From IMG/VR virus record IMGVR_UViG_3300045988_076522: a stretch of 64,000 bases of DNA, one strand, 5' to 3'. Below, in pieces: positions 5,741-64,000 of the stretch (the first letter of the stretch is position 1; every line of letters begins with the position of its first letter). Under the pieces are notes generated by a model, which made no database searches, was not told the DNA's origin, and saw only the letters and a program-made list of their open reading frames with translations. The DNA is from a virus. A program made the position numbers and the translations under genes.

Positions 5741-5787
5741 ATTATTTCAATGTTTAATGTTTGAACCTCAAATTTACTAATTAATTA

Positions 5788-6471
5788 TTACACTTCAAAG
5801 TCAAGGTCTGCGTTATCTGTGGCTACATCATTAGATGCTGCAAAATCGTCAGAACTTGTACCAGGCATGTCAGTAGGGCCGTTACTCTTCTGTTTATTCA
5901 TCTGACTGATTTCATAGTCAGAGAAGAATACTTTGTCTCCTAACCAGTTGTTAGAGATATATGCATCACCTGCTTTACTGATATTGACGAAATAAGGCAG
6001 ACAAGGTTCGCCTTTCTTATTAGCAATCAGCTTCAGATTAGTATGCTTATTAACTGCATCCTTAGTGATGTCGGCAAATGTCTTTACCAATTTCTCAAAC
6101 TCTTCCGGAAGGGCAAAAGTTTTAGTTTTAAATGCTTCATATTTCTTAGGAGCAAGTTGTTCTCCAATATGAGCTAACATAAATTTAAACTTCTCAAAGT
6201 TGGACGGACTTTCACGTTCAACTCCATTGTTAGAGCTTACTTGTCTTACATCATCTCCCTCTTTAGGACAGAATACTGTTTCTTCATAAACACCATTCTC
6301 ATTCTCGAATGAAATTCTCATGGTTTTGTACACTGCGTCAGGGTCTTTCTTACCCTTAAACTCATTGAATGTTATTCCCTTGAAGATAACATCGTGGATT
6401 TCCCATGGTTTCAGTCTTGGTTTAATAGATGATGTACCGTTCGTGTTTGTTAAGTTGAAATTCATTGACAT
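5788..6471 (-). CDS. Putative single-stranded DNA-binding protein
   Basis: The acidic C-terminal tail ends in ...ADLDFEV, an SSB-like acidic tip with a terminal aromatic. It lies between the primase and the ATPase. Confidence 0.35.
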   Translation of the reverse strand: MSMNFNLTNTNGTSSIKPRLKPWEIHDVIFKGITFNEFKGKKDPDAVYKTMRISFENENGVYEETVFCPKEGDDVRQVSSNNGVERESPSNFEKFKFMLAHIGEQLAPKKYEAFKTKTFALPEEFEKLVKTFADITKDAVNKHTNLKLIANKKGEPCLPYFVNISKAGDAYISNNWLGDKVFFSDYEISQMNKQKSNGPTDMPGTSSDDFAASNDVATDNADLDFEV

Positions 6472-16854: not shown

Positions 16855-17125
16855 TCACTAGAGTAGACCTTACCTCATTAGAAGTAAAGAATAATCTAAT
16901 AACTAATCTGAATTTGACCCTAAACGGCAGTACGAATATCGTTCTGCGCGATTAGCACTACATTAAATATAACGTAGCCTAAAGTCCGTTACCATAAACT
17001 GATAACAATAATGCCAATGCCTGGCATTAGGTGTGTTGCTAGGAGCAACGAAGAAGAGCCTACACCCCCCCCAGTGATATTCTGGCTGGAATGTCTATTC
17101 CATAACCTATCACCATACATAAGAA

Positions 17126-19916: not shown

Positions 19917-20855
19917 TTATAGCATTAAATTGTTAATACGTTTATATTCTTCAAACACTTTGTCCTCTGATTCTTCTCCCCACATACTGTGAATGAGAAT
20001 ACCATAAGCACAAGGCTGGTACACAATAGGGTCTACTGCCTTCTTAGTGATTGTAACCTCTGGATTGTTTAATTGACTAGGAGGGCAAGCTACAAATAGC
20101 TCATTTCTACCTATCTTAACAGCATCAAAGGAAACTATGTTAGGGTAGCTAAAAGCCTTTACATCAGCAGGAAGGCCGGGATTCTTGTTAATTATACTAG
20201 ACAGCCTGAGTGTGCCTTCTGTATCAGGGCCAATAACTATGTGATTGTGTGATTCTATGTATTTCTTCAGATTGTTCAACATAGTTTCACTGTCACTGTA
20301 TCCGTAGTTAATACCTGTAACATAATAATATGCCCCATTAGCATACTCCAACCCTAAATCAGAGAACATTGGTCCTTCACCATTAAGTTTACGCTTAACT
20401 TCTAAGATTTCTCTAATATTACGGTCAGGAATCACTCCAGTGTACTGTTTTAGTAGACCTTTGACAAGTTTATACTTCTTACAAACATCATCAAATTGTT
20501 TAGAACCAACTAGAAGAGTACTCTCTCCGAACACTTCTCTTGCACGCTTTACGAAACTAAACAAGTTCTTAGCGCGCATGGCATCCAGAGCTATCTGATT
20601 ATATTCCGATATTTTAGCTTGCAATAACCTAGCATTCTTTGAGCTGCCCAGTCCAGCATCAACCAACGTGTTGTATTCTCTTACTAATGTATCTCTATTA
20701 GGAATATCAACTGATGTCTTGGAAACAGAACGTAGATATTCCTCCATACATAAAGCAAGAGCCATAGCTATGTTGGACTGAATAGTCATCACCGGCACGT
20801 CAACCACTTCTGGAGTTATAACTTCAGAATCATTGCGTTTTAGAAATCTAAACAT
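19917..20855 (-). CDS. Paralog-family protein A (unknown function; C-terminal motif IHSMWGEESEDKVFEEYKR)
   Basis: Shares AGLG(S/G)(S/T)KNA, a G/Y-rich middle and the SMWGEE C-terminus with 28373..29224 and with the decayed copy at 22871..23745. Confidence 0.55.
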   Translation of the reverse strand: MFRFLKRNDSEVITPEVVDVPVMTIQSNIAMALALCMEEYLRSVSKTSVDIPNRDTLVREYNTLVDAGLGSSKNARLLQAKISEYNQIALDAMRAKNLFSFVKRAREVFGESTLLVGSKQFDDVCKKYKLVKGLLKQYTGVIPDRNIREILEVKRKLNGEGPMFSDLGLEYANGAYYYVTGINYGYSDSETMLNNLKKYIESHNHIVIGPDTEGTLRLSSIINKNPGLPADVKAFSYPNIVSFDAVKIGRNELFVACPPSQLNNPEVTITKKAVDPIVYQPCAYGILIHSMWGEESEDKVFEEYKRINNLML

Positions 20856-22867
20856 CAGAAATTGACTTTTAAAGTTCTACTAAATGTTCCGTCCACTTTA
20901 ACAATAACGGAATTACGCATAGTAGATGAGAACCCTAATCCACTCAATTGATGTTCTTGGTAAGGAGTCTTCATCTTATCAGCTAGAACCTCAAATACCT
21001 TACGGTGAGGAGTTAGCTCACTGTTAAGATATTCGTTAAAGAATCCACGAACAGGCTCCGGATTCTTGCAATCATCCAACATAAAGAAGTAATGTTTATT
21101 GCCAATACCCTGCTCATCCCAATAATTGGGAGACAGCATCATCACGTTCACCTTATGGAACTTGTTAGTATCAATATTCCATAGGCTTACTGACGAATGG
21201 CTAGTACTGGGTATTAGCTCTCTTATTTGGATACCTTTAGATTTACTGTAAGTAATCTCGGCAACCATGACATTCTCTTTATGTTTAACGGGTTTGTCAT
21301 AGACAAATTGTCGAACTTCTCCATTGTGTTCTATTTCCAATGTAAATCCTGTATCAACAGATTCTCTACAATGAAAGTTATTGACATACACAACATACTT
21401 ACCTTCAAGCATCTTGCGTTCGTTAACCCATATGATGTTCTCAACGGGTTTGCGAGTTTTGCCATATCCAGCATTTTCATCCACGTCTAGCTTACCACCA
21501 CTTCTGCCGATTCTGTTGGAGTAATAAATTTCAAGATTATTAGGTTCAACGACATGCAAATCCAAGTCATCATAGTTAGACCATGCCAACGAACATCTTA
21601 AGAATCCTTCAGTCTGACCACCAGCAGCTCTTACTTTCTCTTTAATAGAATCAGCTACTCCTCCATTATATGTCCAAGCAAAGTTGTTTGGCCATTTAAA
21701 TAGATTCTTAGCATCCTTATTAACAGGAGCTGTAAGAGTTACTAAGTTATTAGACAGCCTACTCTCCATTAACACTTCTATGTTAGTGGCAGTGGGTACC
21801 ACATTAGCAATGAAATCATCAATGCTAATTTCAGTTAACTTGTCAAACTTCTTAGGATTAACTTTAGTGTCTGCGGCCAGTTCCTCGAATATGTTTCCGG
21901 CCATTACCTTCTTGGCATCACGGTTAGCGAATATAACATTGTTGACTGTTATATCCTCTAAAGCAGCATGTCTACGAGGTAGAGAATCCATAAGACCTAG
22001 TTCCTGCACTTTCTTCTGTGCTTCCTCAATCATTCTTTTAGTAACAATTGACTTAGGTCTTTGATAGTTCTCTGGAGCCATGATACGTTCGTATGCAGTC
22101 ACACAATCGTCCAATTCAAGTCCTGATGATATATTTACCAACAATGTACCAATTGCCGTATTACGAATGCGTGCACATCCTACACGATTGAAGTTTGCCC
22201 AACACCAGTTGTCTTTCTCTTCATCAGGTAATGAATCATAGTATCTTTTATGACCCAGGAATACACTTAAGTCATTTTTAAACTGTTCTCCTCTATATAA
22301 AGCATTCTGACCTATTAAGTCCAGAACTGTTTCTATAGAATCGATAGTTAATTCCTCCAGTGCACGTTTGAACACTTCCTTAGTTGTGCGTAAAGTCCCC
22401 ATTACAGCAGATACGGATTCAGTTCCTGTATACACCAATTGATTTGGCATATGATAGTAAAGATGATTCCAGGTAATTACTTTAGGGCCTTGCAAACTGT
22501 CAATATAGACATTGTTTCTATCAATTCCTAGTTCATAATCACGAGTGATAAAAACATCTACAACTGGTTTTGATTTCACTAATGCATCGAGATTTCTAGC
22601 TACAGTAGCATAAGGTTCATCCAACTGTAGGTTCTCCCACATGGTTACTACTTTATTGTCTTTAATGGCGACAACTCTACCATAATGTCTGATATAATGT
22701 TTACAATTGTTGCAATTATGAGACTGTCTCTCTTCCTCCGGAAAGGAATTAAGATAACAATCCCATAATGCATCCTTGTCTACATTAGTCAGAAAGAGCA
22801 TGTCTGCACCAGCAGCTAGTTGATTAAACTGCGCATGGACTGCTCTTTTAAACTTGACAAATTCCAT
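20855..22867 (-). CDS. Large hypothetical protein (670 aa)
   Basis: Long uninterrupted ORF. N-terminal HNCNNCKHY Cys/His cluster. No confident motif. Confidence 0.55.
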   Translation of the reverse strand: MEFVKFKRAVHAQFNQLAAGADMLFLTNVDKDALWDCYLNSFPEEERQSHNCNNCKHYIRHYGRVVAIKDNKVVTMWENLQLDEPYATVARNLDALVKSKPVVDVFITRDYELGIDRNNVYIDSLQGPKVITWNHLYYHMPNQLVYTGTESVSAVMGTLRTTKEVFKRALEELTIDSIETVLDLIGQNALYRGEQFKNDLSVFLGHKRYYDSLPDEEKDNWCWANFNRVGCARIRNTAIGTLLVNISSGLELDDCVTAYERIMAPENYQRPKSIVTKRMIEEAQKKVQELGLMDSLPRRHAALEDITVNNVIFANRDAKKVMAGNIFEELAADTKVNPKKFDKLTEISIDDFIANVVPTATNIEVLMESRLSNNLVTLTAPVNKDAKNLFKWPNNFAWTYNGGVADSIKEKVRAAGGQTEGFLRCSLAWSNYDDLDLHVVEPNNLEIYYSNRIGRSGGKLDVDENAGYGKTRKPVENIIWVNERKMLEGKYVVYVNNFHCRESVDTGFTLEIEHNGEVRQFVYDKPVKHKENVMVAEITYSKSKGIQIRELIPSTSHSSVSLWNIDTNKFHKVNVMMLSPNYWDEQGIGNKHYFFMLDDCKNPEPVRGFFNEYLNSELTPHRKVFEVLADKMKTPYQEHQLSGLGFSSTMRNSVIVKVDGTFSRTLKVNF

Positions 22868-29224: not shown

Positions 29225-29657
29225 TCATGTATTTTATACCTTCAATTATCACACATGCTAGCCCGCCAACGAGCATAATGAAGTATAATGCAACAATTAG
29301 TGGTTCCCAACCAGTCCCATAATCACTTCTATTAAGATTAAAGCTAAGCCTATTAGGCTTGTTATTAATAAAAGCTCTATCATAGGTTGGTTTGTCTACA
29401 CGTAGTTTAAACTGATTGTCTCTACCGTCAGCTATTAGTGTAAGCTCATATACAGTATGCGTCTGTTGATTAACTGTTTCGGTATAACAGTCCTTAGCAA
29501 CTACTGTAGTCCACACAGGTTTGTCAATACAGGTTTCTTTAACTAGGTTAGATTTACATCCTCCTAGTCCTACTAAGCACCCCCCCAGCCATATTACTAT
29601 CAAAGTTGCATGTCTGAAAGTGTTAGTTGACGGTCTCATATCAACAATTGTTGGCAT
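29199..29657 (-). CDS. Membrane protein (N- and C-terminal TM segments)
   Basis: LIVIWLGGCLVGLGGC and LIVALYFIMLVGGLACVIIEG. Confidence 0.45.
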   Translation of the reverse strand: MPTIVDMRPSTNTFRHATLIVIWLGGCLVGLGGCKSNLVKETCIDKPVWTTVVAKDCYTETVNQQTHTVYELTLIADGRDNQFKLRVDKPTYDRAFINNKPNRLSFNLNRSDYGTGWEPLIVALYFIMLVGGLACVIIEGIKYMIDIKEHLS

Positions 29658-32197: not shown

Positions 32198-33265
32198 CTA
32201 AACTAACTTATCGAATATCATGGGCTGTATCGACATCCATAAATTTGCTAGCATTTCTCGCTCTGCGTCAGATGCTTCATCCCAATGTGATACGTACAAT
32301 TTCTCCGTTCGTTCATTCCTATAAGGAACCTTAAATGAACGGTTAATGCGTACACTGTGTGCGAATAGGTCTTTGTCGAAATCAATAGCCCTAAGCGTCT
32401 TCTGGAAATCGTTGAACTTATTATTAGGGTCATCGACATCCCTAACAGACATTCCAGAAGGAAACGGGCCGTTACCATGCCTTGTTATATAAGGACGAGT
32501 TACATAACAAGTTTGGATTTCTTTACGTATACCTGCTTTCCGCAACAGCTCGTAAGCGTTTTGTGAAGTTGTATTAGACGGAGTACAATAAGGCATTATG
32601 CCGAATCTTTGGTCAAGCAATATTCCCTGTGAACCTTCAAACACTAGGTTATCATAATTCAACAAGCAATCTTCATTAACCGTACCTGTATGTAAGAAAT
32701 AAGCATGTGCTAACCTACACCAGTTGTCTAGGTCTATCGAAGGATATTTACTAGACATGTTGTAATAGTTATCCACTATGGCATTTAGTTTCTCACGCAG
32801 TATGTAAGGATTCATACAATCTACAACTGTTAAGCTGTATCCTGCCTTAACTCGGTCCAAACAAGCTTTAAACCCTGTACCTACAGTACCATGTCGTAAG
32901 TTCTCTTCGTTATTAACTTGGGAATAGACATCGAAGGGAATTACAACTTGGCAGTGAGGGTGATACTGAACAATGGGATGAACTCCCATTTTAGCTAAGT
33001 CTGCACCCTCCAACATAGAGGTAATTGGGTCTACAGTACAGTATTCGGACCAGTACGTCGGCACTCCAAGTAAGGTTCCGCTGCCAAAGTTACTAAAGGT
33101 GTGCATCATGTCTCCATGCTTTACAGTATGTCCTACTTGATGTCCACCACTAAACCTGACCACTAACACAGACTCTCGCTTACCTATGTACTTGTTACAT
33201 AAGTTGTGAACTGTCTGTCCCTTACCTTCGTCTCCAAAGAATGTTCCTAATACAATACTAATCAT
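32198..33265 (-). CDS. Adenylosuccinate synthetase homolog (PurA/PurZ family), short form
   Basis: P-loop IVLGTFFGDEGKGQ. VVRFSGGHQVGHTV corresponds to the PurA RFQGGHNAGHTV segment. HGTVGTGFKAC corresponds to TTKRGIGP. At 355 aa it is shorter than bacterial PurA (~430 aa). Confidence 0.6.
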   Translation of the reverse strand: MISIVLGTFFGDEGKGQTVHNLCNKYIGKRESVLVVRFSGGHQVGHTVKHGDMMHTFSNFGSGTLLGVPTYWSEYCTVDPITSMLEGADLAKMGVHPIVQYHPHCQVVIPFDVYSQVNNEENLRHGTVGTGFKACLDRVKAGYSLTVVDCMNPYILREKLNAIVDNYYNMSSKYPSIDLDNWCRLAHAYFLHTGTVNEDCLLNYDNLVFEGSQGILLDQRFGIMPYCTPSNTTSQNAYELLRKAGIRKEIQTCYVTRPYITRHGNGPFPSGMSVRDVDDPNNKFNDFQKTLRAIDFDKDLFAHSVRINRSFKVPYRNERTEKLYVSHWDEASDAEREMLANLWMSIQPMIFDKLV

Positions 33266-48157: not shown

Positions 48158-48537
48158 CTCTTTGTTTAAATTTATTGTTATGAGAGTCTTTCTTTATTCT
48201 AAACAATAAACAAGCGGCATTACGGCAATCGGACATACGTTAACCCGCTCGCCACTTACAGACCGTAATGCACACTTGACCAGGCAGGAAAGAGGTTTGC
48301 TTGGTGACCTATCTGCATGCTGATTATATAATACAGACCGTGTAGATTCTCTCTTACACAATATCTATAGTAGATTTGCACTACTGTTTTCTGATGCTTA
48401 ATCAGGTGAACTCCTACTGTTCGAATAGATACAGGTTTCAACTCTTTGATATAGCCTTTAAGTCATAGACATACTCCGGAATATGTCTACTGGTTCTTCA
48501 GACCAAGTTTTGCTACCACCATTCGTCAATAGTGGAT

Positions 48538-50385: not shown

Positions 50386-50412
50386 AAAATTGATATTTAA
50401 ACGTTAATAATA

Positions 50413-50966
50413 GTGGACCTAGGCGGAGTCGAACCGCCGTCCAAACAACCCTCATTAATAAGATTACGTGTGTCTCTATTTTATTACATCAGCTGTTGAG
50501 TTCAGCATGTAGGTAGTTTTACTAGTCTTATCTTGGAACCAGGTAATTAGGCTGCAATAGCCAAACCAGTACACCAAAAGCTAATTTACAAACTACCAAA
50601 CTTAAAGGTTCAGAAGCTGACGCTTCCAAACCTGGGCTGACCGAAGTCGCTCTTCCACCACTCCATTTACGTTGGAGAACGTTTCTATTTGTAACCCATA
50701 GATAGGTAGTGGAGATTTCAGCTTTACTAACCTTTGGCTTTCAAGTTAAGTGGGCTGCTCTATACGCTTCTTCCCACACCTCTTCTGTTTCTAGGTCTCT
50801 CCAATTAACCCGACTTAGAGCTAAATTAATAGATAAGCCAGCAGCTTAGGCTGCCATTCTTACTTCAGTGTTTCCACTTAAATTGCTGTATCATTATTAA
50901 AGAGTTGGTACGAACTCTACACGTCTTACTAACTTGTAATCGCCTGTCAAAACCAAATCTAGGCCC
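50413..50966 (-). ncRNA. ssrA: tmRNA-like gene (ssrA-like), about 550 nt
   Basis: Minus-strand 5' end GGGCCTAGATTTGGTTTTGACAGG matches the tmRNA 5' consensus GGGGCUGAUUCUGGAUUCGACGGG. The 3' end GGACGGCGGTTCGACTCCGCCTAGGTCCA matches GGACGGGGGUUCAAAUCCCCC-acceptor. The 5' and 3' ends pair (GGGCCTA/TAGGTCC). No ORF longer than 60 aa occurs in the 700 bp. A possible tag frame is ...GNTEVRMAA-TAA. Confidence 0.5.
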
Positions 50967-58300: not shown

Positions 58301-58408
58301 CCATTTGGTAATATTGAAATATATAACTAATTTTGTATTGTCAAATTAAATAATAATATATTTGCGAACTTAAATCAGAATTATTAACAATAACTAAAAT
58401 TTATAACA

Positions 58409-58663
58409 ATGGCTAAAGAAGTTAAAGACTTAACAAGTAAAGAAGTAGATGAAGTAAAAATATTAAAGACTAGTTTGTCAGAATGTCCAGTAAATACTGA
58501 TTTAGGATGTAATGAATCAAAGGCAACTAACTGGGTGAAGTTAGACAATAAAACAACAGATGTAAAATTAGAATTATTAAATAAATTGCAAGACGGACTA
58601 GCTAATGGAGCTGGTATTGAATATTTAATGCAACTATCTTGCATTTATAATAACATTCGCTAA
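58409..58663 (+). CDS. Hypothetical protein
   Basis: First plus-strand ORF after the control region. 84 aa. Confidence 0.5.
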   Translation: MAKEVKDLTSKEVDEVKILKTSLSECPVNTDLGCNESKATNWVKLDNKTTDVKLELLNKLQDGLANGAGIEYLMQLSCIYNNIR

Positions 58664-58665
58664 TA

Positions 58666-59040
58666 ATGAGACATATTGATAGAATTAATAAGCAGTATGA
58701 AGAGAAGGAAGTTAAATTGCTATATGATAAAGCTGTAGCGTTAATGAATCTTCTTAGTGATGAGGAATATGAACAAGTAATTACAGACAATGCAGATATA
58801 TTTAAATTAGCATCTCATCCCGAGAGGGGTGAGTTCTATTTACAAGATAAGCACAACTTAGTCCAGATTGTAGACATATTTAGTAAATTCATTAAAACTA
58901 AAGGCCTATCTAAGGACGAATTTAAAATAATGACTCTAGATGAAGTTAAAGAGTATATGGTTGATGTTATTAATGATATCACATCATTCGAACCAGATGA
59001 GCTATTCACAATAGTAAAGAACTTAGAGAAACTTCAATGA
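58666..59040 (+). CDS. Hypothetical protein
   Basis: 124 aa, tightly packed. Confidence 0.5.
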   Translation: MRHIDRINKQYEEKEVKLLYDKAVALMNLLSDEEYEQVITDNADIFKLASHPERGEFYLQDKHNLVQIVDIFSKFIKTKGLSKDEFKIMTLDEVKEYMVDVINDITSFEPDELFTIVKNLEKLQ

Positions 59041-59348
59041 AACTAGAACAAATACCAGGTGATTATGATAATGTAGACCAGAGAGCTCTAGAATTATTAA
59101 AGACTAATGACTATGAATTAGCAGAGTATATGAGGGATTATATAAAGGAATTATATGCTAACATACATATGAGAGACTTCTATATTAGAAACCTTAAGGA
59201 TGAAATACTTCATACACTCAAACATAGAGACTCTATAAGTGGTGAGGAGCTACTACAAATACTAAATAAGGTAGCTCCATGGGATATGGAATATGATGGC
59301 AGATGGCAAACTAGAGACTATTTAGCAAGAGCAAAGGCTAATCAATGA
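59037..59348 (+). CDS. Hypothetical protein
   Basis: 103 aa, overlapping start and stop. Confidence 0.5.
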   Translation: MKLEQIPGDYDNVDQRALELLKTNDYELAEYMRDYIKELYANIHMRDFYIRNLKDEILHTLKHRDSISGEELLQILNKVAPWDMEYDGRWQTRDYLARAKANQ

Positions 59349-59418
59349 TAACACAAGAAGTAGAATTAGTAGAAGAAGCATTGTATAGGAATGCATACAT
59401 ATATCCAGGCTGGAAGTA

Positions 59419-59688
59419 TTGCCTACCTGGATTACTAAAGACAATATATTTATGACAGGAGAAGAAATTATAGTAACATTTAAAGAGCCTTGGTATAATG
59501 ACTATAACAAACGATTATACACTCAATTATCTGAACAAATGATTAGAGAAGAGATTGAGAGAGTGCATAAAGAACCAATCATTACTAATGCTGCATTTGA
59601 TATAGCAGTAGACAAGGCTTTCCTAGAGTTACTGCATGACAACAAGGATTTAATTAATATTACAGAACGATACAAGAACCATGAGTAA
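59419..59688 (+). CDS. Hypothetical protein
   Basis: 89-aa ORF. Confidence 0.45.
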   Translation: MPTWITKDNIFMTGEEIIVTFKEPWYNDYNKRLYTQLSEQMIREEIERVHKEPIITNAAFDIAVDKAFLELLHDNKDLINITERYKNHE

Positions 59689-59712
59689 AATGGCAACAGA
59701 ATTAGAAGCTAA

Positions 59713-60327
59713 GACTATGGGGGGGGGACTCTCTCGGTAATTGATAATAAGTGCTGTACTAAAGCTAGAGCACTTGAATTAGGATGTCAGATTAAAAGTG
59801 GATTTAGTTATACTGATAATCAGTTAGTAGAGTTAGAAGGTATAGAGGCAGCTATAACTGCTCCAAATGTAATCCTTCATTATGGTTGGCAGGATATGCC
59901 AATTAATAATATACAGCAATTTAGAGTACGTTTCTCATTTGTTAATGAGAGTTCAGTGAATGGAGAGCCGTTTAAGTATTCTGACAATACTATGTACTTT
60001 ACAATTACTCCAAGATTAGAGCAAGGAGAACGAACGTACACTAAGACTTTAGCAAATCCTCTTAAATATTACTTAGAGAAATTAGCACTTCCTAACCAAG
60101 ACCCATATAATACACCTGTTTGGATACGTTTTGAGGGATACGTGATGCTTAAGCAAGTGTCTCAAATTACATTAGCAGTAGATTCTCAATCTGAGAATTG
60201 GGCAGAAGGAGTAACATTTCCTTCATCTGGAAAGTGGGTCAAAATGAATAATTCTGGTAGAGTATTTAGATTTACTGGTGGGGAAATAGACCTAAACATA
60301 GAACTGTATACAGCGTCAGCGCAATGA
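59713..60327 (+). CDS. Hypothetical protein. The reading frame is open from 59713. A candidate ATG at 59690 is in the neighbouring frame across a G9 tract.
   Basis: The frame of the 59896 ORF stays open back to 59713, through GGGGGGGGG at 59719-59727. The ATG at 59690 (MATELEAKTM) is displaced by one nucleotide. Confidence 0.45.
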   Translation, partial: DYGGGTLSVIDNKCCTKARALELGCQIKSGFSYTDNQLVELEGIEAAITAPNVILHYGWQDMPINNIQQFRVRFSFVNESSVNGEPFKYSDNTMYFTITPRLEQGERTYTKTLANPLKYYLEKLALPNQDPYNTPVWIRFEGYVMLKQVSQITLAVDSQSENWAEGVTFPSSGKWVKMNNSGRVFRFTGGEIDLNIELYTASAQ

Positions 60328-60521
60328 TTAAAGTAACTGATAATAAAGAAGTAAAGGAAACAGTCCTAGCAGGACTTAAAAGGAATAAAGAGAAGTATGG
60401 TAAGAAGTACTGCCCATGCTCTTTAGTAAGAGATGAAGATACAGTATGTATGTGTAAAGAGTTTAGGGAAATGGAAGAAGGGACTTGCCATTGCCAACTT
60501 TATGTTAAAACTAAAGACTAA
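60324..60521 (+). CDS. Ferredoxin-thioredoxin-reductase catalytic-subunit-like CPC/CxC/CHC mini-protein
   Basis: YCPCSLVRDEDTVCMCKEFREMEEGTCHCQLY carries the CPC...CxC...CHC signature of FTR catalytic-domain-like proteins. Confidence 0.4.
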   Translation: MIKVTDNKEVKETVLAGLKRNKEKYGKKYCPCSLVRDEDTVCMCKEFREMEEGTCHCQLYVKTKD

Positions 60522-60687
60522 TAATTATGGATGAATTAAAGAACCAATTAGCACAGTATTTATGTAGCCAAATTCATAATGGCACTAAGGATTTGATTGA
60601 ATTAATTGAATCAGAAGACCTTATTAATGAACAGTGGTATAAGAACTGGAAGGAAGAGATGAGAATCTTACTACAGGAGAAGTAATT

Positions 60688-60927
60688 ATGATAATACTTA
60701 GTGGAAATTGTCCTAGGCATCATAATGCCATTATGTTGGAACTTACAGACTTTGATGACAGTAAAATCTCCTATCTAGCTAGAATATCTAGAGGACATCA
60801 TGTTGATACTCTGTTAGTTCCTAGGGAATATAAAGATACATTTGAATCTACAGAACTATATAAAGTATTACTGCCTAATATTAGTATAGGTGATGTACAA
60901 TTTGCTAAAATATACTATTATGATTGA
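60688..60927 (+). CDS. Hypothetical protein
   Basis: 79-aa ORF. Confidence 0.4.
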   Translation: MIILSGNCPRHHNAIMLELTDFDDSKISYLARISRGHHVDTLLVPREYKDTFESTELYKVLLPNISIGDVQFAKIYYYD

Positions 60928-61150
60928 CGTTAGAAAGACATTAGAGAATTTACATCAGATACTTCCAAACTTATCAATAGAGGACTTATTTAGAGTTCTT
61001 GATAACATAGTAGAGATTCCACAATTTAACGTAGGACAGACAACTACTATACGTAGAGATAATAGTGGCTGGAGACCATATGACACAGGTACATTTATAT
61101 CTTATGCTAGTAATGGAATAACACTTAGTGATGAAGGAACTTGTAAATAA
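60890..61150 (+). CDS. Hypothetical protein
   Basis: 86-aa ORF. Confidence 0.4.
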   Translation: MMYNLLKYTIMIDVRKTLENLHQILPNLSIEDLFRVLDNIVEIPQFNVGQTTTIRRDNSGWRPYDTGTFISYASNGITLSDEGTCK

Positions 61151-61337
61151 CTGGAATGAGAAACATCCCGAATACGTATTGGTACACGGGATGTATTCTT
61201 ATGTAGACAATGGACAATCTAAGGATATGCACATGCTTACTATCTTTAATAAGGATAATGAATGTGTATGTGAATATAAAGGAGAAGATTTTATTAAATT
61301 ATATAATACACTAGAAGAGGAATGGGAAAGCGATTAA
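61128..61337 (+). CDS. Hypothetical protein
   Basis: 69-aa ORF. Confidence 0.4.
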   Translation: MMKELVNNWNEKHPEYVLVHGMYSYVDNGQSKDMHMLTIFNKDNECVCEYKGEDFIKLYNTLEEEWESD

Positions 61338-62002
61338 TTAATGTTGATGAAGTAGAGGAGATAGTACCCGTCCTAGTAGACAAATTACTAGAGAACAATT
61401 TGATAACGGAGGAACAAGCGGACCAAATCATCTGTGCAATCTTTAATGATAACGATAGGCTAAATGAAATTAGGGAATTAAATCCAGATTATGATATTAG
61501 TATGCATAAGCTGAATGTTTGCGTGGGAGATAGTCAGTATAGACTAGTGTATTGTATATATGTGGAGCATAAAGAATCTGGGATAAGTGTGTATAGGGAC
61601 AAGGACTTCGATGTACAGGAAGTGATAAACAGACTTCCATCTAAATTCACAATAGAGAAAGAACAAGAGTTGCTTCCTAAAGGAGTAAATATAAAGATTC
61701 ATAAATACTCTATTAACTGTGCAGTAAGTCTATTTAGCAACGCTGCTAACTACTTTAAAGACCATACAGTAAATATAACTATTAGTTATCCATTAAAGAA
61801 TCCGTATACATTCACTGCTAAATGCCGCAATTTGAATGATTTAATAAATGAAATAACCCTTGCATATAGAAGGATTTACGAAGAAGAGAAGGAGAATCCA
61901 GGTAAGTATGGAATATGGGGACATCATATAGAAGATTTATGGCTTGAGAAAGCTACTCTCGATATAGAGACTGGTAATGTTAAAATACTTGTAGGTAGTT
62001 AA
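61322..62002 (+). CDS. Hypothetical protein
   Basis: 226-aa ORF. Confidence 0.5.
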   Translation: MGKRLINVDEVEEIVPVLVDKLLENNLITEEQADQIICAIFNDNDRLNEIRELNPDYDISMHKLNVCVGDSQYRLVYCIYVEHKESGISVYRDKDFDVQEVINRLPSKFTIEKEQELLPKGVNIKIHKYSINCAVSLFSNAANYFKDHTVNITISYPLKNPYTFTAKCRNLNDLINEITLAYRRIYEEEKENPGKYGIWGHHIEDLWLEKATLDIETGNVKILVGS

Positions 62003-62003
62003 T

Positions 62004-62285
62004 ATGGATAATAAATTAAATGTACAGAAACTAGGATATGAAGTAGGAGAACCTATGTGGGTTCATTGGGATAATAGATACGTATTGCGTGGAGGACATA
62101 TACTAGGAAAATGCCCAGATGAGAATTTGATAACCACAGTGGGCTACTTGGCATATATGGACGACAAATCAATAATATTGGGAAGAGGTATTGAGAATCA
62201 TTGTGATGAGGACGGTACTCGCAGAGTAAAAGATACAATACACATACCAATGAGCTTAGTAGCTAGTTTTGGAAGTTTTGATTGA
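62004..62285 (+). CDS. Hypothetical protein
   Basis: 93-aa ORF. Confidence 0.45.
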   Translation: MDNKLNVQKLGYEVGEPMWVHWDNRYVLRGGHILGKCPDENLITTVGYLAYMDDKSIILGRGIENHCDEDGTRRVKDTIHIPMSLVASFGSFD

Positions 62286-62291
62286 TGAACT

Positions 62292-63146
62292 ATGATAAAT
62301 GAGGAGTATAATAAATGGCTAATCCTTTACTTTGATATGCAATCTATAAATTTACAGTTCAATTGTAATGATATAGCATCATCACTAAAGGCACAAAGAG
62401 ATAAGATAAAACAATTCTGTATTGACTGTCTAACAGGGGTAAAACATCAGGCTGACAGCTTTCTATTTGACACAAATGCCTGCATATTTTCTACTTCTGA
62501 AACCAGAGAATTGTTATTCTCGCATGAAGAATATCTCATTCTTGAGGCTGATACTACTAAGGCAGTTGACGGGAAGTACCCTTTAGACTATGCTACTGAA
62601 ATAGTAGAATCTAATTTGGACGATATTATTGATTATATGGTACAATCAGGAACAGAAACATATAATATAAGAACTAGTAGAGGATTTGGGAATAGGTGGA
62701 GTCTTTATAATGAGGAGGAACTTAAACAAGTAATTAAACTGTTTAACTCTGGCACTTGGTATGATACATTTGGAGCTTTAAAGAATTTATATTATGAAAG
62801 AACTCCCAAAGGCTTAAGAATGTGTAACCTTACTGGTAAATCTTTACAAGATAATGTTCTAGGATATATAGAAGATATTATTTTGAATATAAAAGACCGT
62901 TATGAAACATTTGCTGTTATTCCTAGAGGTGAATCTAAATTACAAGTTTATATGACAATAAGCAATGGAACAAATGGGGCTGAAGGATGTATTATTAATT
63001 CTATGGAAGATGTTCTAAATGTGCTTAAAAACTTAAGGAAATATAAAGGAGTAAATTGGTCTCAATTATTAGAAGTTGGAATAGACAATGCAGATGATTT
63101 ATATTGGTGGTACGTGACATTCTCTATAGACACTACGGCTGTGTAA
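62292..63146 (+). CDS. Hypothetical protein
   Basis: 284-aa ORF. Confidence 0.5.
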   Translation: MINEEYNKWLILYFDMQSINLQFNCNDIASSLKAQRDKIKQFCIDCLTGVKHQADSFLFDTNACIFSTSETRELLFSHEEYLILEADTTKAVDGKYPLDYATEIVESNLDDIIDYMVQSGTETYNIRTSRGFGNRWSLYNEEELKQVIKLFNSGTWYDTFGALKNLYYERTPKGLRMCNLTGKSLQDNVLGYIEDIILNIKDRYETFAVIPRGESKLQVYMTISNGTNGAEGCIINSMEDVLNVLKNLRKYKGVNWSQLLEVGIDNADDLYWWYVTFSIDTTAV

Positions 63147-63161
63147 TAAATTAATATAAAT

Positions 63162-63422
63162 ATGAGCAAATGGAATGACTGGGCAATTACTACTAAATTC
63201 CCACCTATAAAGCCAGGTTACGGTATGAATTGTAGAACGGATTATAAAATAGATGTAGTATTTAAAGTACGTACAGGTAAGGGATATTGGAGAGGAAGTA
63301 AGTATCTTTATGTATGCAATAATAACACTATTTACTTGTTAGGTTCAGATGCAGGAATACATCACGTAACAGAAGAGTTACCTAGTAACCTTGAAGCTAA
63401 AGTCCGTGAGTATAAACCTTAA
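63162..63422 (+). CDS. Hypothetical protein
   Basis: 86-aa ORF. Confidence 0.45.
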   Translation: MSKWNDWAITTKFPPIKPGYGMNCRTDYKIDVVFKVRTGKGYWRGSKYLYVCNNNTIYLLGSDAGIHHVTEELPSNLEAKVREYKP

Positions 63423-63442
63423 ATGAATTAATATGAATTAAT

Positions 63443-63811
63443 ATGAATTGTAAATTAAAACGTAAAGACTTAGTACTTATTAAATGGAATAGCAAGTACA
63501 TGACTGATAGAGAAGGATGCAGTCTATCAGAAGATGTTAAATATTTAAATAGAGATATAGAAACAAGTACAGTAGGTTACTTCATAGAAGAAGATGATAA
63601 AGCTATTGTACTTGCTTCAAGTATTTATGGTATTAATATACCTGATTCATTATGTAAGGATTGTATGGTAATTCCTAAAGCCTATATAAAAGATATAACT
63701 TCGATTGGCACAGAGCTTGTTGCTCAGCTCTTATATTTCTTACAACAACGTAATTACATTACAGAAGAGCAAATGAATGATGCATGTAATGAGATTCTAA
63801 AATCAAATTAA
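63443..63811 (+). CDS. Hypothetical protein
   Basis: 122-aa ORF. It is preceded by the tandem repeat ATGAATTAAT x2. Confidence 0.45.
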   Translation: MNCKLKRKDLVLIKWNSKYMTDREGCSLSEDVKYLNRDIETSTVGYFIEEDDKAIVLASSIYGINIPDSLCKDCMVIPKAYIKDITSIGTELVAQLLYFLQQRNYITEEQMNDACNEILKSN

Positions 63812-64000
63812 TATGACTAATGAACAATTAAATCAATACTATAGTAAAGATGCAGATAAGAAACAGTGTTGGGTAAGTAAAGACCATAACTGTCCATTAA
63901 AGGAACAATGCAATGGACTTGTTAAGCCAGAATGTAAAGAGCATATAGACAATGAAGAAGCCTGCCATGTTGTTGATAAGATGATAGAATGGTATTACCA
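63812..64000 (+). CDS. Hypothetical Cys-rich protein, 5' part (runs off the window)
   Basis: MTNEQLNQYYSKDADKKQCWVSKDHNCPLKEQCNGLVKPECKEH... is open to the window end. Confidence 0.4.

What the first reader, a model, noticed from the sequence alone, without database searches (positions are those of the whole stretch)
59690..59900. G9 homopolymer separating a start codon from its ORF: slippage, phase variation or a sequencing artefact
ATG at 59690 (MATELEAKTM) runs into GGGGGGGGG (59719-59727) and stops 4 codons later. The frame of ORF 59896-60327 is open all the way back to 59713, through the same G-run. One extra G (G10) would fuse the upstream ATG in-frame. That would give a ~213-aa protein instead of the 143-aa product from the internal Met. 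Homopolymeric G tracts are classic sites for replication slippage, phase variation and transcriptional slippage.
Basis: seen in the sequence. Interest (0 to 1): 0.6.

Follow-up and report, generated by a model that had tools for sequence, protein, structure and literature searches.

The report
Variable poly-G switch in gut phage gene
The run of nine Gs is real and sits at codons 13-16 of a 215-residue phage gene; its length differs (8, 9, 10 or 11) between otherwise identical copies of this human-gut phage, so it most likely acts as a slippage-driven on/off switch of a kind already known from Campylobacter phages, and this window carries an "off" copy.

Summary
G9 lies at 59719-59727, the upstream frame stops at 59738-59740, and the frame of ORF 59896-60327 is open back through the tract. 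One more G gives a single ORF.

One correction: the conserved start is ATG 59681 (MSK...), which overlaps the stop of the upstream gene. The product is 215 aa.

In 64 related loci retrieved without regard to frame, the tract position is 10 nt (in frame) in 26, 9 nt in 25, 8 nt in 12 and 11 nt in 1. Loci with identical 650-nt flanks differ in tract length. In all 13 out-of-frame IMG/VR loci and in the window, setting the tract to 10 restores an intact 215-aa ORF.

The genome is otherwise almost free of homopolymers, and GGG is its rarest Gly codon. A second poly-G tract (17065-17072) ranges from G6 to G12 in relatives. Relatives also carry a poly-G tract in another gene outside this window.

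Best reading: a hypermutable poly-G contingency tract toggling a non-essential modular protein. That protein has a conserved N-terminal module and a swappable beta-sandwich C-domain.

This is a new member of a known kind (Fletchervirus poly-G tracts; T2/T4 contingency loci). An assembly error in this particular window cannot be excluded without reads.

The parts
59452..59688 (+). Upstream 78-aa gene (MTGEEIIV...KNHE). Its stop TAA 59686-59688 overlaps the start of the poly-G gene by 8 nt.
   Evidence: Gene calls in relatives give 78 aa ending 8 nt inside the 215-aa gene.
59681..59683 (+). Conserved start codon of the 215-aa gene (MSK...).
   Evidence: ATG is present at this position in all 18 IMG/VR relatives. 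All full-length homologs start MSKIATELEAK.
59690..59692 (+). It is codon 4 of the gene (Met here, Ile/ATA in relatives) and not the start.
59719..59727 (+). G9 tract: the last base of codon 13 plus the Gly codons 14-16. G9 is an out-of-frame ('off') length; 10 nt at this position is in frame.
59681..59740 (+). Truncated reading frame of the G9 allele: MSKMATELEAKTMGGGLSR, 19 aa, stop TAA 59738-59740.
59728..60327 (+). Rest of the gene (codons 17-215 plus stop TGA 60325-60327), lying in the -1 frame relative to the start in this allele.
   Evidence: Setting the tract to 10 gives an intact 215-aa ORF in the window and in all 13 out-of-frame IMG/VR loci.
59681..59847 (+). Coding region of the N-terminal module, about 56 residues (KIATExEA..IGG....NKCCTK.RA..LGC....Y.DNQLV). 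The poly-G encodes its Gly-Gly-Gly loop.
   Evidence: The module matches the N-termini of about 100 clusters (50% identity level) with unrelated C-termini. pN/pS is 0.09.
59857..60324 (+). Coding region of the C-terminal beta-sandwich domain (residues about 60-215). It is a variable cassette.
   Evidence: AlphaFold2 pLDDT is about 80-94 over most of this domain. Alternative C-domains occur at the same locus. pN/pS is 0.60.
59896..59898 (+). Internal ATG (Met73). This is the start that an ORF finder reports for the 143-aa remnant.
   Evidence: Gene callers report 143-aa or 166/167-aa products in out-of-frame relatives.
60324..60521 (+). Downstream 65-aa gene (FeThRed_B-like). Its start overlaps the stop of the 215-aa gene as ATGA, so it may be translationally coupled.
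   Evidence: PF02943, E 1.5e-13. No Shine-Dalgarno-like motif lies upstream.
17065..17072 (-). Second hypervariable poly-G tract of the same genome (G8 here). It lies in a short ORF or structured spacer between two minus-strand genes.
   Evidence: The G run is 6 to 12 in 24 relatives. The surrounding 266 nt fold with z = -4.1 and have no Rfam match.
29580..29586 (-). G7 run inside an intact 152-aa lipoprotein-like ORF. It is not a variable tract and serves as a contrast case.
   Evidence: All 19 relatives have GGTGGTG at this position.

Best explanation
The G9 run is a hypermutable homopolymer (a contingency locus) at codons 13-16 of a 215-aa gene. The phage is an uncultivated human-gut phage of roughly 175-190 kb.

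Mechanism: slipped-strand mispairing during phage DNA replication adds or removes single Gs. Ten nucleotides at this position give the full protein. Eight, nine or eleven end translation after 19-20 codons. The window carries a G9 'off' allele.

The protein has two parts:
- a strongly conserved N-terminal module of about 56 residues, shared by many phage proteins;
- a variable beta-sandwich C-domain that is exchanged as a cassette.

In one crAss-like phage a protein with this N-module lies in the tail-fibre gene cluster.

What is shown: tract-length polymorphism on identical haplotypes; intact ORFs in out-of-frame alleles; purifying selection on the N-module; retention of the tract in a genome purged of homopolymers.

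What is inferred: that the switching is reversible within a population, that it is selected as bet-hedging, and that the protein acts at the virion surface or in host interaction. Loss of translational coupling to the downstream gene in 'off' alleles is also an inference.
For: (1) Tract lengths. In 64 loci retrieved by features downstream of the tract, and so without bias toward either frame, the lengths are 8 nt in 12, 9 nt in 25, 10 nt in 26 and 11 nt in 1. That is 26 in frame and 38 out of frame.

(2) Loci with identical flanks (250 nt upstream plus 400 nt downstream) differ only in the tract: L001/L074 G10 against L006 G9; L003/L091/L110 G10 against L094 G9; L082/L089/L112 G9A, G8A, G7A. 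Among 20 pairs at 99% identity or more over up to 2.1 kb with no gaps, 11 differ in tract length.

(3) All 13 out-of-frame IMG/VR loci and the window give an intact 215-aa ORF once the tract is set to 10. pN/pS is 0.09 in the N-module, and overall it is similar for off-off pairs (0.51) and on-on pairs (0.39).

(4) The genome avoids homopolymers. A5 is seen 10 times against 65 expected, T5 15 against 101, and T6 or longer 0 against about 45. GGG makes up only 6.4% of Gly codons, and a synonymous GGG-to-GGA change would break the tract. Even so, only 6 of the 71 loci tabulated have the G run broken internally by an A (longest run 6-7), and four further alleles have pure runs of only 7.

(5) The tract persists in alleles with a different C-domain: L160 has G10 and L084 has A+G8.

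(6) Other poly-G tracts behave the same way. 17065-17072 ranges from G6 to G12 in relatives. A 361-aa gene found in relatives has a poly-G tract at its own Gly-Gly-Gly codons, in frame in 4 of 15 loci.

(7) Out-of-frame alleles occur in assemblies with good coverage (contig names: L108 at 17.6x with G8), so low coverage does not explain them all.
Against: - No reads are available. Heterogeneity within a sample and reversibility are therefore not shown, and the G9 in this particular window could be a consensus error.
- Many of the metagenome contigs have low coverage (1-8x). Illumina and PCR tend to shorten long G runs, which could inflate the share of 8- and 9-nt alleles.
- The window also has GGGGGGG where all 19 relatives have GGTGGTG. 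That looks like a G-context miscall, which lowers trust in this assembly at G-rich sites.
- Five of 60 loci carry further lesions in the gene, either deletions or frameshifts. Several protein clusters are deletion fusions. The gene is therefore dispensable and partly decaying, which also fits a non-adaptive hotspot.
- The function of the protein is unknown. There is no Pfam, PHROG or PDB match, and only weak fold matches.
Confidence: 0.72

Rival explanations
1. Assembly or sequencing artefact in this window. The real genome has a 10-nt in-frame tract, and one G was lost in the consensus.
For: Long G runs are error-prone. Many related contigs have low coverage (contig names). The window has an odd GGGGGGG where all 19 relatives have GGTGGTG, which suggests G-context miscalls in this assembly.
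Against: G9 is the commonest single allele in the 71 loci (22 pure G9). Lengths of 8-11 nt occur, including in a contig at 17.6x coverage. The second tract spans G6-G12, far beyond error size. No other indels occur in 2.1 kb of flanks between near-identical loci.
Confidence: 0.12
2. Programmed recoding. The G9 allele is the working form, and the full protein is made by -1 ribosomal frameshifting on G GGG GGA, or by RNA-polymerase slippage on the G run. The 19-aa peptide would be the default product.
For: G GGG GGA in the zero frame is a perfect X XXY YYZ slippery site. A -1 shift there gives exactly ...TMGGGTLSV..., the protein encoded by in-frame alleles (sequence). Some leaky expression of G9 alleles by this route is plausible.
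Against: The out-of-frame arrangement is not conserved: 26 of 64 loci are directly in frame, and 12 of 64 would need a +1 or -2 shift. The 100 nt downstream fold no better than shuffles (-19 kcal/mol, z = -0.47). The only neat hairpin starts about 24 nt after the tract.
Confidence: 0.06
3. Non-adaptive mutational hotspot in a dispensable, decaying accessory gene. The tract slips, but nothing selects for switching.
For: 59% of loci are out of frame. Five of 60 loci have extra deletions or frameshifts. Deletion fusions with the upstream gene exist (P0035, P0037, P0058, P0061).
Against: The tract is kept even though a single synonymous change would remove it, in a genome otherwise purged of homopolymers. 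The N-module has pN/pS 0.09. Out-of-frame alleles are otherwise intact. The tract persists across different C-domain cassettes, and a second gene carries one too.
Confidence: 0.1

Closest known systems
Hypermutable poly-G tracts in receptor-binding-protein genes of Campylobacter Fletchervirus phages (Sorensen et al. 2021, Cell Rep 35:109214; cited in PMC10877375, PMC12823448 and bioRxiv 10.1101/2025.10.21.683753)
   Same: Runs of 7-11 Gs lie inside phage ORFs. Length changes shift the frame and create mixed phage populations. Several tracts occur per genome.
   Different: There is no sequence relation: tblastn against 50,697 GenBank phage records found nothing. The phage lineage is different (human gut, 37% GC, genes without Shine-Dalgarno motifs). 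The protein belongs to an unnamed family, and a role in receptor binding is only inferred. Nothing here has been tested experimentally.
Contingency loci of coliphages T2/T4 (Gomez, Barrick and Waters, bioRxiv 10.1101/2025.10.21.683753)
   Same: Short homopolymers in phage genes give reversible frameshifts by polymerase slippage. The authors interpret this as bet-hedging, for example against host defence.
   Different: Those genomes carry dozens of runs of 6 or more bases, mostly A or T. This genome is depleted of all homopolymers of 5 or more and keeps only two variable tracts in this window plus one more in relatives, all long poly-G.
Bacterial poly-G/poly-C contingency loci (Campylobacter, Haemophilus, Neisseria); established knowledge, reviewed in PMC11868660
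   Same: A tract near the 5' end of an ORF acts as an on/off switch through frameshift. 'Off' alleles remain otherwise intact. Tract length varies between near-identical strains.
   Different: The tract is carried by a virus and replicated in a lytic cycle. The switching rate is unknown.
Programmed -1 frameshifting in phage genes (e.g. lambda G/GT, dnaX); established knowledge
   Same: A slippery heptamer (G GGG GGA) is present. A -1 shift would give the full protein from the G9 allele.
   Different: There is no conserved out-of-frame arrangement and no significant downstream structure. Many relatives are simply in frame.
Modular tail-fibre or receptor-binding proteins with a conserved N-terminal anchor and exchangeable C-terminal domain; established knowledge
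   Same: The N-terminal 56 residues are nearly invariant, while the C-domain drops to about 40-50% DNA identity at the same locus. Chimeras with another gene join at the NQLVxxExI junction. A member of the N-module family lies directly after a Peptidase_S74 fibre gene in a crAss-like phage.

Membership tests
Homopolymer contingency locus (slipped-strand phase variation) | A long mononucleotide run lies inside an ORF or promoter, well above chance. | tested here: met
   G9 lies at codons 13-16. No G9 appeared in 100 Markov simulations. It is the only G run longer than 5 in the window.
Homopolymer contingency locus (slipped-strand phase variation) | Tract length differs between otherwise (near-)identical genomes and toggles the reading frame. 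| tested here: met
   Lengths of 8, 9, 10 and 11 nt occur in 12, 25, 26 and 1 of 64 loci. Three groups with identical 650-nt flanks differ only in the tract. Eleven of 20 pairs at 99% identity or more differ.
Homopolymer contingency locus (slipped-strand phase variation) | 'Off' alleles are otherwise intact, so the state is reversible rather than decay. | tested here: met
   All 13 out-of-frame IMG/VR loci and the window restore a 215-aa ORF when the tract is set to 10. However, 5 of 60 loci in the wider set have extra lesions.
Homopolymer contingency locus (slipped-strand phase variation) | High-frequency reversible switching occurs within a clonal population. | not testable with these tools
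   No reads or cultures are available.
Homopolymer contingency locus (slipped-strand phase variation) | The tract is maintained by selection against synonymous interruption. | tested here: inconclusive
   GGG is 6.4% of Gly codons and the genome is purged of runs of 5 or more. Only 6 of 71 loci have an internally interrupted run. This is suggestive, but there is no formal test against a neutral model.
Programmed -1 ribosomal frameshift site | A slippery heptamer X XXY YYZ lies in the zero frame. | tested here: met
   G GGG GGA at 59721-59727 plus A 59728; read from the sequence.
Programmed -1 ribosomal frameshift site | A stimulatory structure lies 5-9 nt downstream. | tested here: not met
   The 100 nt downstream give MFE -19 kcal/mol and z = -0.47. 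The hairpin starts about 24 nt away.
Programmed -1 ribosomal frameshift site | The two-frame arrangement is conserved in relatives. | tested here: not met
   26 of 64 loci are in frame, and 12 of 64 would need a +1 or -2 shift.
Fletchervirus poly-G receptor-binding proteins | Sequence homology to the Campylobacter phage proteins or genomes. | tested here: not met
   megablast and tblastn against 50,697 GenBank phage records found no match.
Unnamed N-terminal module family (KIATExEA..IGG..NKCCTK.RA..LGC..Y.DNQLV) | A significant profile or sequence match lies at the N-terminus. | tested here: met
   phmmer gave 110 representatives at E 0.001 or less. Most align residues 1 to about 55 of the query to their own N-termini, and they are 44-1121 aa long.
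Phage tail fibre / receptor-binding protein | Location in a tail gene module, presence in virions, or a fold match to known fibres. | tested here: inconclusive
Pseudogene | Several independent disabling mutations and relaxed constraint. | tested here: not met
   The window has a single frame defect, located at the tract. The N-module has pN/pS 0.09.

The most novel reading that the evidence does not exclude
An abundant human-gut phage lineage, probably infecting Bacteroidota, has purged its genome of homopolymers but keeps a small set of poly-G switches. Two of them sit at the Gly-Gly-Gly loop of the N-terminal adaptor of two cassette-swapping proteins that are probably surface-exposed. Each phage population would then be a mixture of particles that display or lack each protein. 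This would be a combinatorial bet-hedging system for host range or defence evasion. It would be the first described outside Campylobacter phages and coliphages, and it would be visible directly in public metagenomes as a roughly 40:60 on/off split.
Probability: 0.35. Interest if true: 0.7.

Novelty: new member of a known kind. Interest (0 to 1): 0.55.

Why it matters
Poly-G phase variation in phage genes has been worked out experimentally only for Campylobacter phages. It was recently proposed as a general 'contingency locus' strategy from work on T-even phages.

This locus shows the same signature in an uncultivated, widespread human-gut phage, using public assemblies alone.

If the switch is adaptive, it marks a protein family of unknown function as a host-interaction determinant. 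The family is an N-terminal module shared by about 100 sequence clusters, including crAss-like phages. It would also give a simple read-out (G8, G9 or G10 fractions) for phage-host dynamics in gut metagenomes.

For annotation, the practical point is that the 143-aa ORF call is wrong. The gene is 215 aa with a frame-shifting tract.

Tried and rejected
- DNA and protein searches against GenBank phages with the locus and the fused protein found nothing. The same was true for distant family members P0139 and P0119. A consensus N-module query hit one unannotated fecal phage record only.
- Pfam and PHROGs gave nothing for the protein or for long family members, apart from InlB B-repeat domains in three of them.
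- A PDB profile search with the N-module found nothing significant.
- A second large protein search with the N-module profile returned only short, unnamed fragments.
- IMG/VR scans with the diverged alleles P0070 and P0073 returned only the same loci.
- I considered whether TAG recoding could change the frames, because a tRNA-CTA suppressor lies at 44072-44144. It cannot: the stops involved are TAA and TGA, and no gene in the window needs TAG read-through.
- The G7 run at 29580-29586 was rejected as a third switch, because relatives have GGTGGTG there.
- The Sorensen 2021 paper itself is not in the library. Its content is cited through papers that describe it.

Full report
**What is in the sequence.**
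The nine Gs are at 59719-59727. The frame of ORF 59896-60327 is open back to 59713 and passes through the tract. One extra G joins the two frames. So would a -1 shift of the ribosome on G GGG GGA, which gives the same protein.

The run is not a chance event. It is the only G run longer than 5 in 64 kb. None of 100 first-order Markov simulations produced a G9.

**The real gene.**
A search of 5.8 billion proteins with the fused translation found 78 clusters. Twenty-seven of them are 210-219 aa long and cover the whole query at 78-96% identity. All begin MSKIATELEAKTMGGGTLSV.

It overlaps the stop of the upstream 78-aa gene. The gene encodes 215 aa, and the G9 allele stops after 19 aa.

The same search returned clusters of 166/167 aa and 143 aa. 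These are the remnants that gene callers report. The four contigs checked for such clusters have G8 or G9.

**Variation in tract length.**
I collected loci by features downstream of the tract, so that the sample is not biased toward either frame. There are 18 from IMG/VR and 45 usable ones from a DNA-pattern scan of metagenome contigs, plus the window.

| Length at the tract position | Loci (of 64) | Frame |
|---|---|---|
| 8 nt | 12 | out |
| 9 nt | 25 | out |
| 10 nt | 26 | in |
| 11 nt | 1 | out |

That is 26 in frame and 38 out of frame.

Three groups of loci with identical flanks (250 nt upstream plus 400 nt downstream) differ only in the tract, for example G9A, G8A and G7A in L082, L089 and L112. 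Among 20 pairs at 99% identity or more over up to 2.1 kb, none has any other gap, and 11 differ in tract length. The tract therefore changes faster than any other site nearby.

All 13 out-of-frame IMG/VR loci and the window give an intact 215-aa ORF once the tract is set to 10.

In the wider set, 5 of 60 loci carry additional deletions or frameshifts. Some protein clusters are deletion fusions with the upstream gene. The gene is therefore dispensable in at least some populations.

**Is the tract kept on purpose?**
- The window is 37% G+C yet almost lacks homopolymers. A5 occurs 10 times against 65 expected and T5 15 against 101. T6 or longer occurs 0 times against about 45 expected, and there is a single A6. 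Independent assemblies of relatives show the same pattern.
- GGG is the rarest Gly codon (38 of 594, or 6.4%). Gly-Gly pairs elsewhere use GGT or GGA.
- A single synonymous GGG-to-GGA change would break the run. Even so, only 6 of the 71 loci tabulated have the run interrupted internally (longest run 6-7). All six of those are in frame, although three of them were retrieved through an in-frame protein.
- The tract is also present in alleles whose C-domain is a different cassette. L160 has G10, and L084 has A+G8 with the P0073-type domain. A third cassette type has a collapsed, in-frame GGGGAGG (L157-159).

These points argue for selection that keeps the run. They are not a formal test.

**Other poly-G tracts in the lineage.**
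- C8 at 17065-17072 (G8 on the minus, coding-side strand) ranges from G6 to G12 in 24 relatives. Sequencing error cannot give that spread. The tract lies in a 43-codon ORF or spacer between two genes. The 266 nt around it fold much better than shuffles (z = -4.1) and have no Rfam match.
- In 15 relatives, a 361-aa gene 3-4 kb further on, on the opposite strand, has its own poly-G at codons 22-25 (DYGKGGGYC). It is in frame in 4 loci, two of which have interrupted runs, and out of frame in 11. That gene is not inside this window.
- In contrast, the G7 at 29580-29586 is GGTGGTG in all 19 relatives. It is not a switch.

**The protein.**
There is no Pfam, PHROG or PDB sequence match.

The first 56 or so residues are nearly invariant within the lineage and under strong purifying selection (pN/pS 0.09). 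The C-domain evolves fast (pN/pS 0.60). At the same locus the C-domain is replaced by versions with only 40-50% DNA identity.

A scan of 1.84 billion representatives shows that the N-module heads about 100 other clusters, 44-1121 aa long, with unrelated C-parts. The module consensus is KIATExEA..IGG.......NKCCTK.RA..LGC.V.G.Y.DNQLV. The Gly-Gly that the poly-G encodes is a conserved feature of the module.

In a 98.6-kb crAss-like contig, a 440-aa member lies directly after a Peptidase_S74 fibre gene, inside the capsid and tail module.

Two single-contig chimeras swap N- and C-parts between the 215-aa and the 361-aa proteins at the NQLVxxExI junction (P0076 and P0040).

My reading is a modular, adaptor-plus-binding-domain protein, possibly on the virion. 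This is an inference. In this phage the neighbours are small unknown genes and a FeThRed_B-like gene.

**Rivals.**
- *Assembly artefact in this window.* It cannot be excluded without reads. The odd G7 and the low coverage of many contigs are warnings. Against it, G9 is the commonest single allele, out-of-frame alleles occur at 17.6x coverage, and the second tract spans seven lengths.
- *Programmed -1 frameshifting or transcript slippage.* The site is perfectly slippery. However, the arrangement is not conserved: 41% of loci are in frame and 19% would need another kind of shift. The downstream RNA also folds no better than shuffles (z = -0.47). Some leaky expression from G9 remains possible.
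- *Non-adaptive hotspot in a decaying gene.* The extra lesions in 5 of 60 loci favour it. The points under 'Is the tract kept on purpose?' count against it.

**Comparison with what is known.**
Runs of 7-11 Gs in receptor-binding-protein genes of Campylobacter Fletchervirus phages create phenotypic diversity. This is Sorensen et al. 2021, as described.

A 2025 preprint reports contingency loci in T2/T4 and other phages. It notes poly-G tracts in BPP-1 and PB1-like phages.

The present locus works like these. It is unrelated in sequence to the GenBank phage records searched, which should include the Campylobacter phages. It sits in a different, uncultivated gut lineage with these features:
- contigs of 172-189 kb;
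- human and vervet gut samples;
- only 3 of 49 genes with a Shine-Dalgarno-like motif, which hints at a Bacteroidota host.

I therefore file it as a new member of a known kind.

**Verdict.**
The 143-aa ORF call is an annotation artefact of a frame-shifting poly-G tract in a 215-aa gene. The most likely mechanism is replication slippage giving on/off variants, with this window carrying an 'off' copy (confidence about 0.7). Interest is moderate (0.55).

Noticed in passing
window 17065-17072 (minus strand), region 16860-17125: A second poly-G tract (G8 here) ranges from G6 to G12 in 24 relatives. It lies in a 43-codon ORF or spacer. The 266 nt around it fold with z = -4.1, and there is no Rfam match. 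This may be a structured RNA or a regulatory spacer with a variable G run.
   Followed up: partly
relatives only: L070 about 5762-5810, L079, L080, L085, L105 and others: A 361-aa gene (MSKIVTQDKLNELTGMSIDYGKGGGYCPHY...) has its own poly-G tract at codons 22-25, in frame in 4 of 15 loci. Chimeric proteins P0076 and P0040 swap N- and C-parts with the 215-aa protein at NQLVxxExI. A 756-aa glucosaminidase-domain protein lies next to it.
   Followed up: partly
whole window: Homopolymers of 5 or more are strongly depleted for all four bases. For example, T6 or longer occurs 0 times against about 45 expected. Independent assemblies of relatives show the same pattern.
   Followed up: partly
window 29580-29586 (minus strand): A G7 run lies inside an intact 152-aa lipoprotein-like ORF. 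All 19 relatives have GGTGGTG at this position, so there are two T-to-G differences within one heptamer. This is either a rare variant or a G-context miscall in this assembly.
   Followed up: partly
window 17991-51605: There are 29 tRNA genes, nearly all on the minus strand. They include a tRNA with anticodon CTA (amber suppressor type) at 44072-44144. No gene in this window needs TAG read-through, so any recoding would concern genes elsewhere in the genome.
   Followed up: partly
window 50411-50966 (minus) and 48428-48535 (minus): There is an Rfam tmRNA match of 556 nt against a 374-position model, which is unusually long. ARAGORN did not report it. There is also a RAGATH-34 RNA match at 119 bits.
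   Followed up: no
window 32198-33265 (minus) and 20855-22867 (minus): One protein matches phrog_1211 (an adenylosuccinate-synthetase-like enzyme of the kind used for 2-aminoadenine DNA). A 670-aa protein is conserved in ViI-like and Bacillus BCP78-like phages (47% identity). Together they hint at modified DNA bases.
   Followed up: no
window 58400-64000 and all long ORFs: Only 3 of 49 start codons are preceded by a Shine-Dalgarno-like motif. Many genes overlap start to stop. This fits a host that does not use Shine-Dalgarno motifs, such as Bacteroidota.
   Followed up: partly
L116 8001-8180 and L118 10001-11323 (crAss-like contigs): The 440-aa N-module protein is interrupted by an in-frame TAA in L116 where P0119 has Gln. 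L118 does not translate to the recorded protein under table 11. The cause is either nonsense variants or stop-codon recoding in that crAss-like phage.
   Followed up: no
L075, L079, L098, L102, L115: These loci carry further deletions or frameshifts inside the 215-aa gene. Several protein clusters (P0029, P0035, P0037, P0058, P0061) are internal deletions or fusions with the upstream gene. The locus is also a deletion hotspot.
   Followed up: partly
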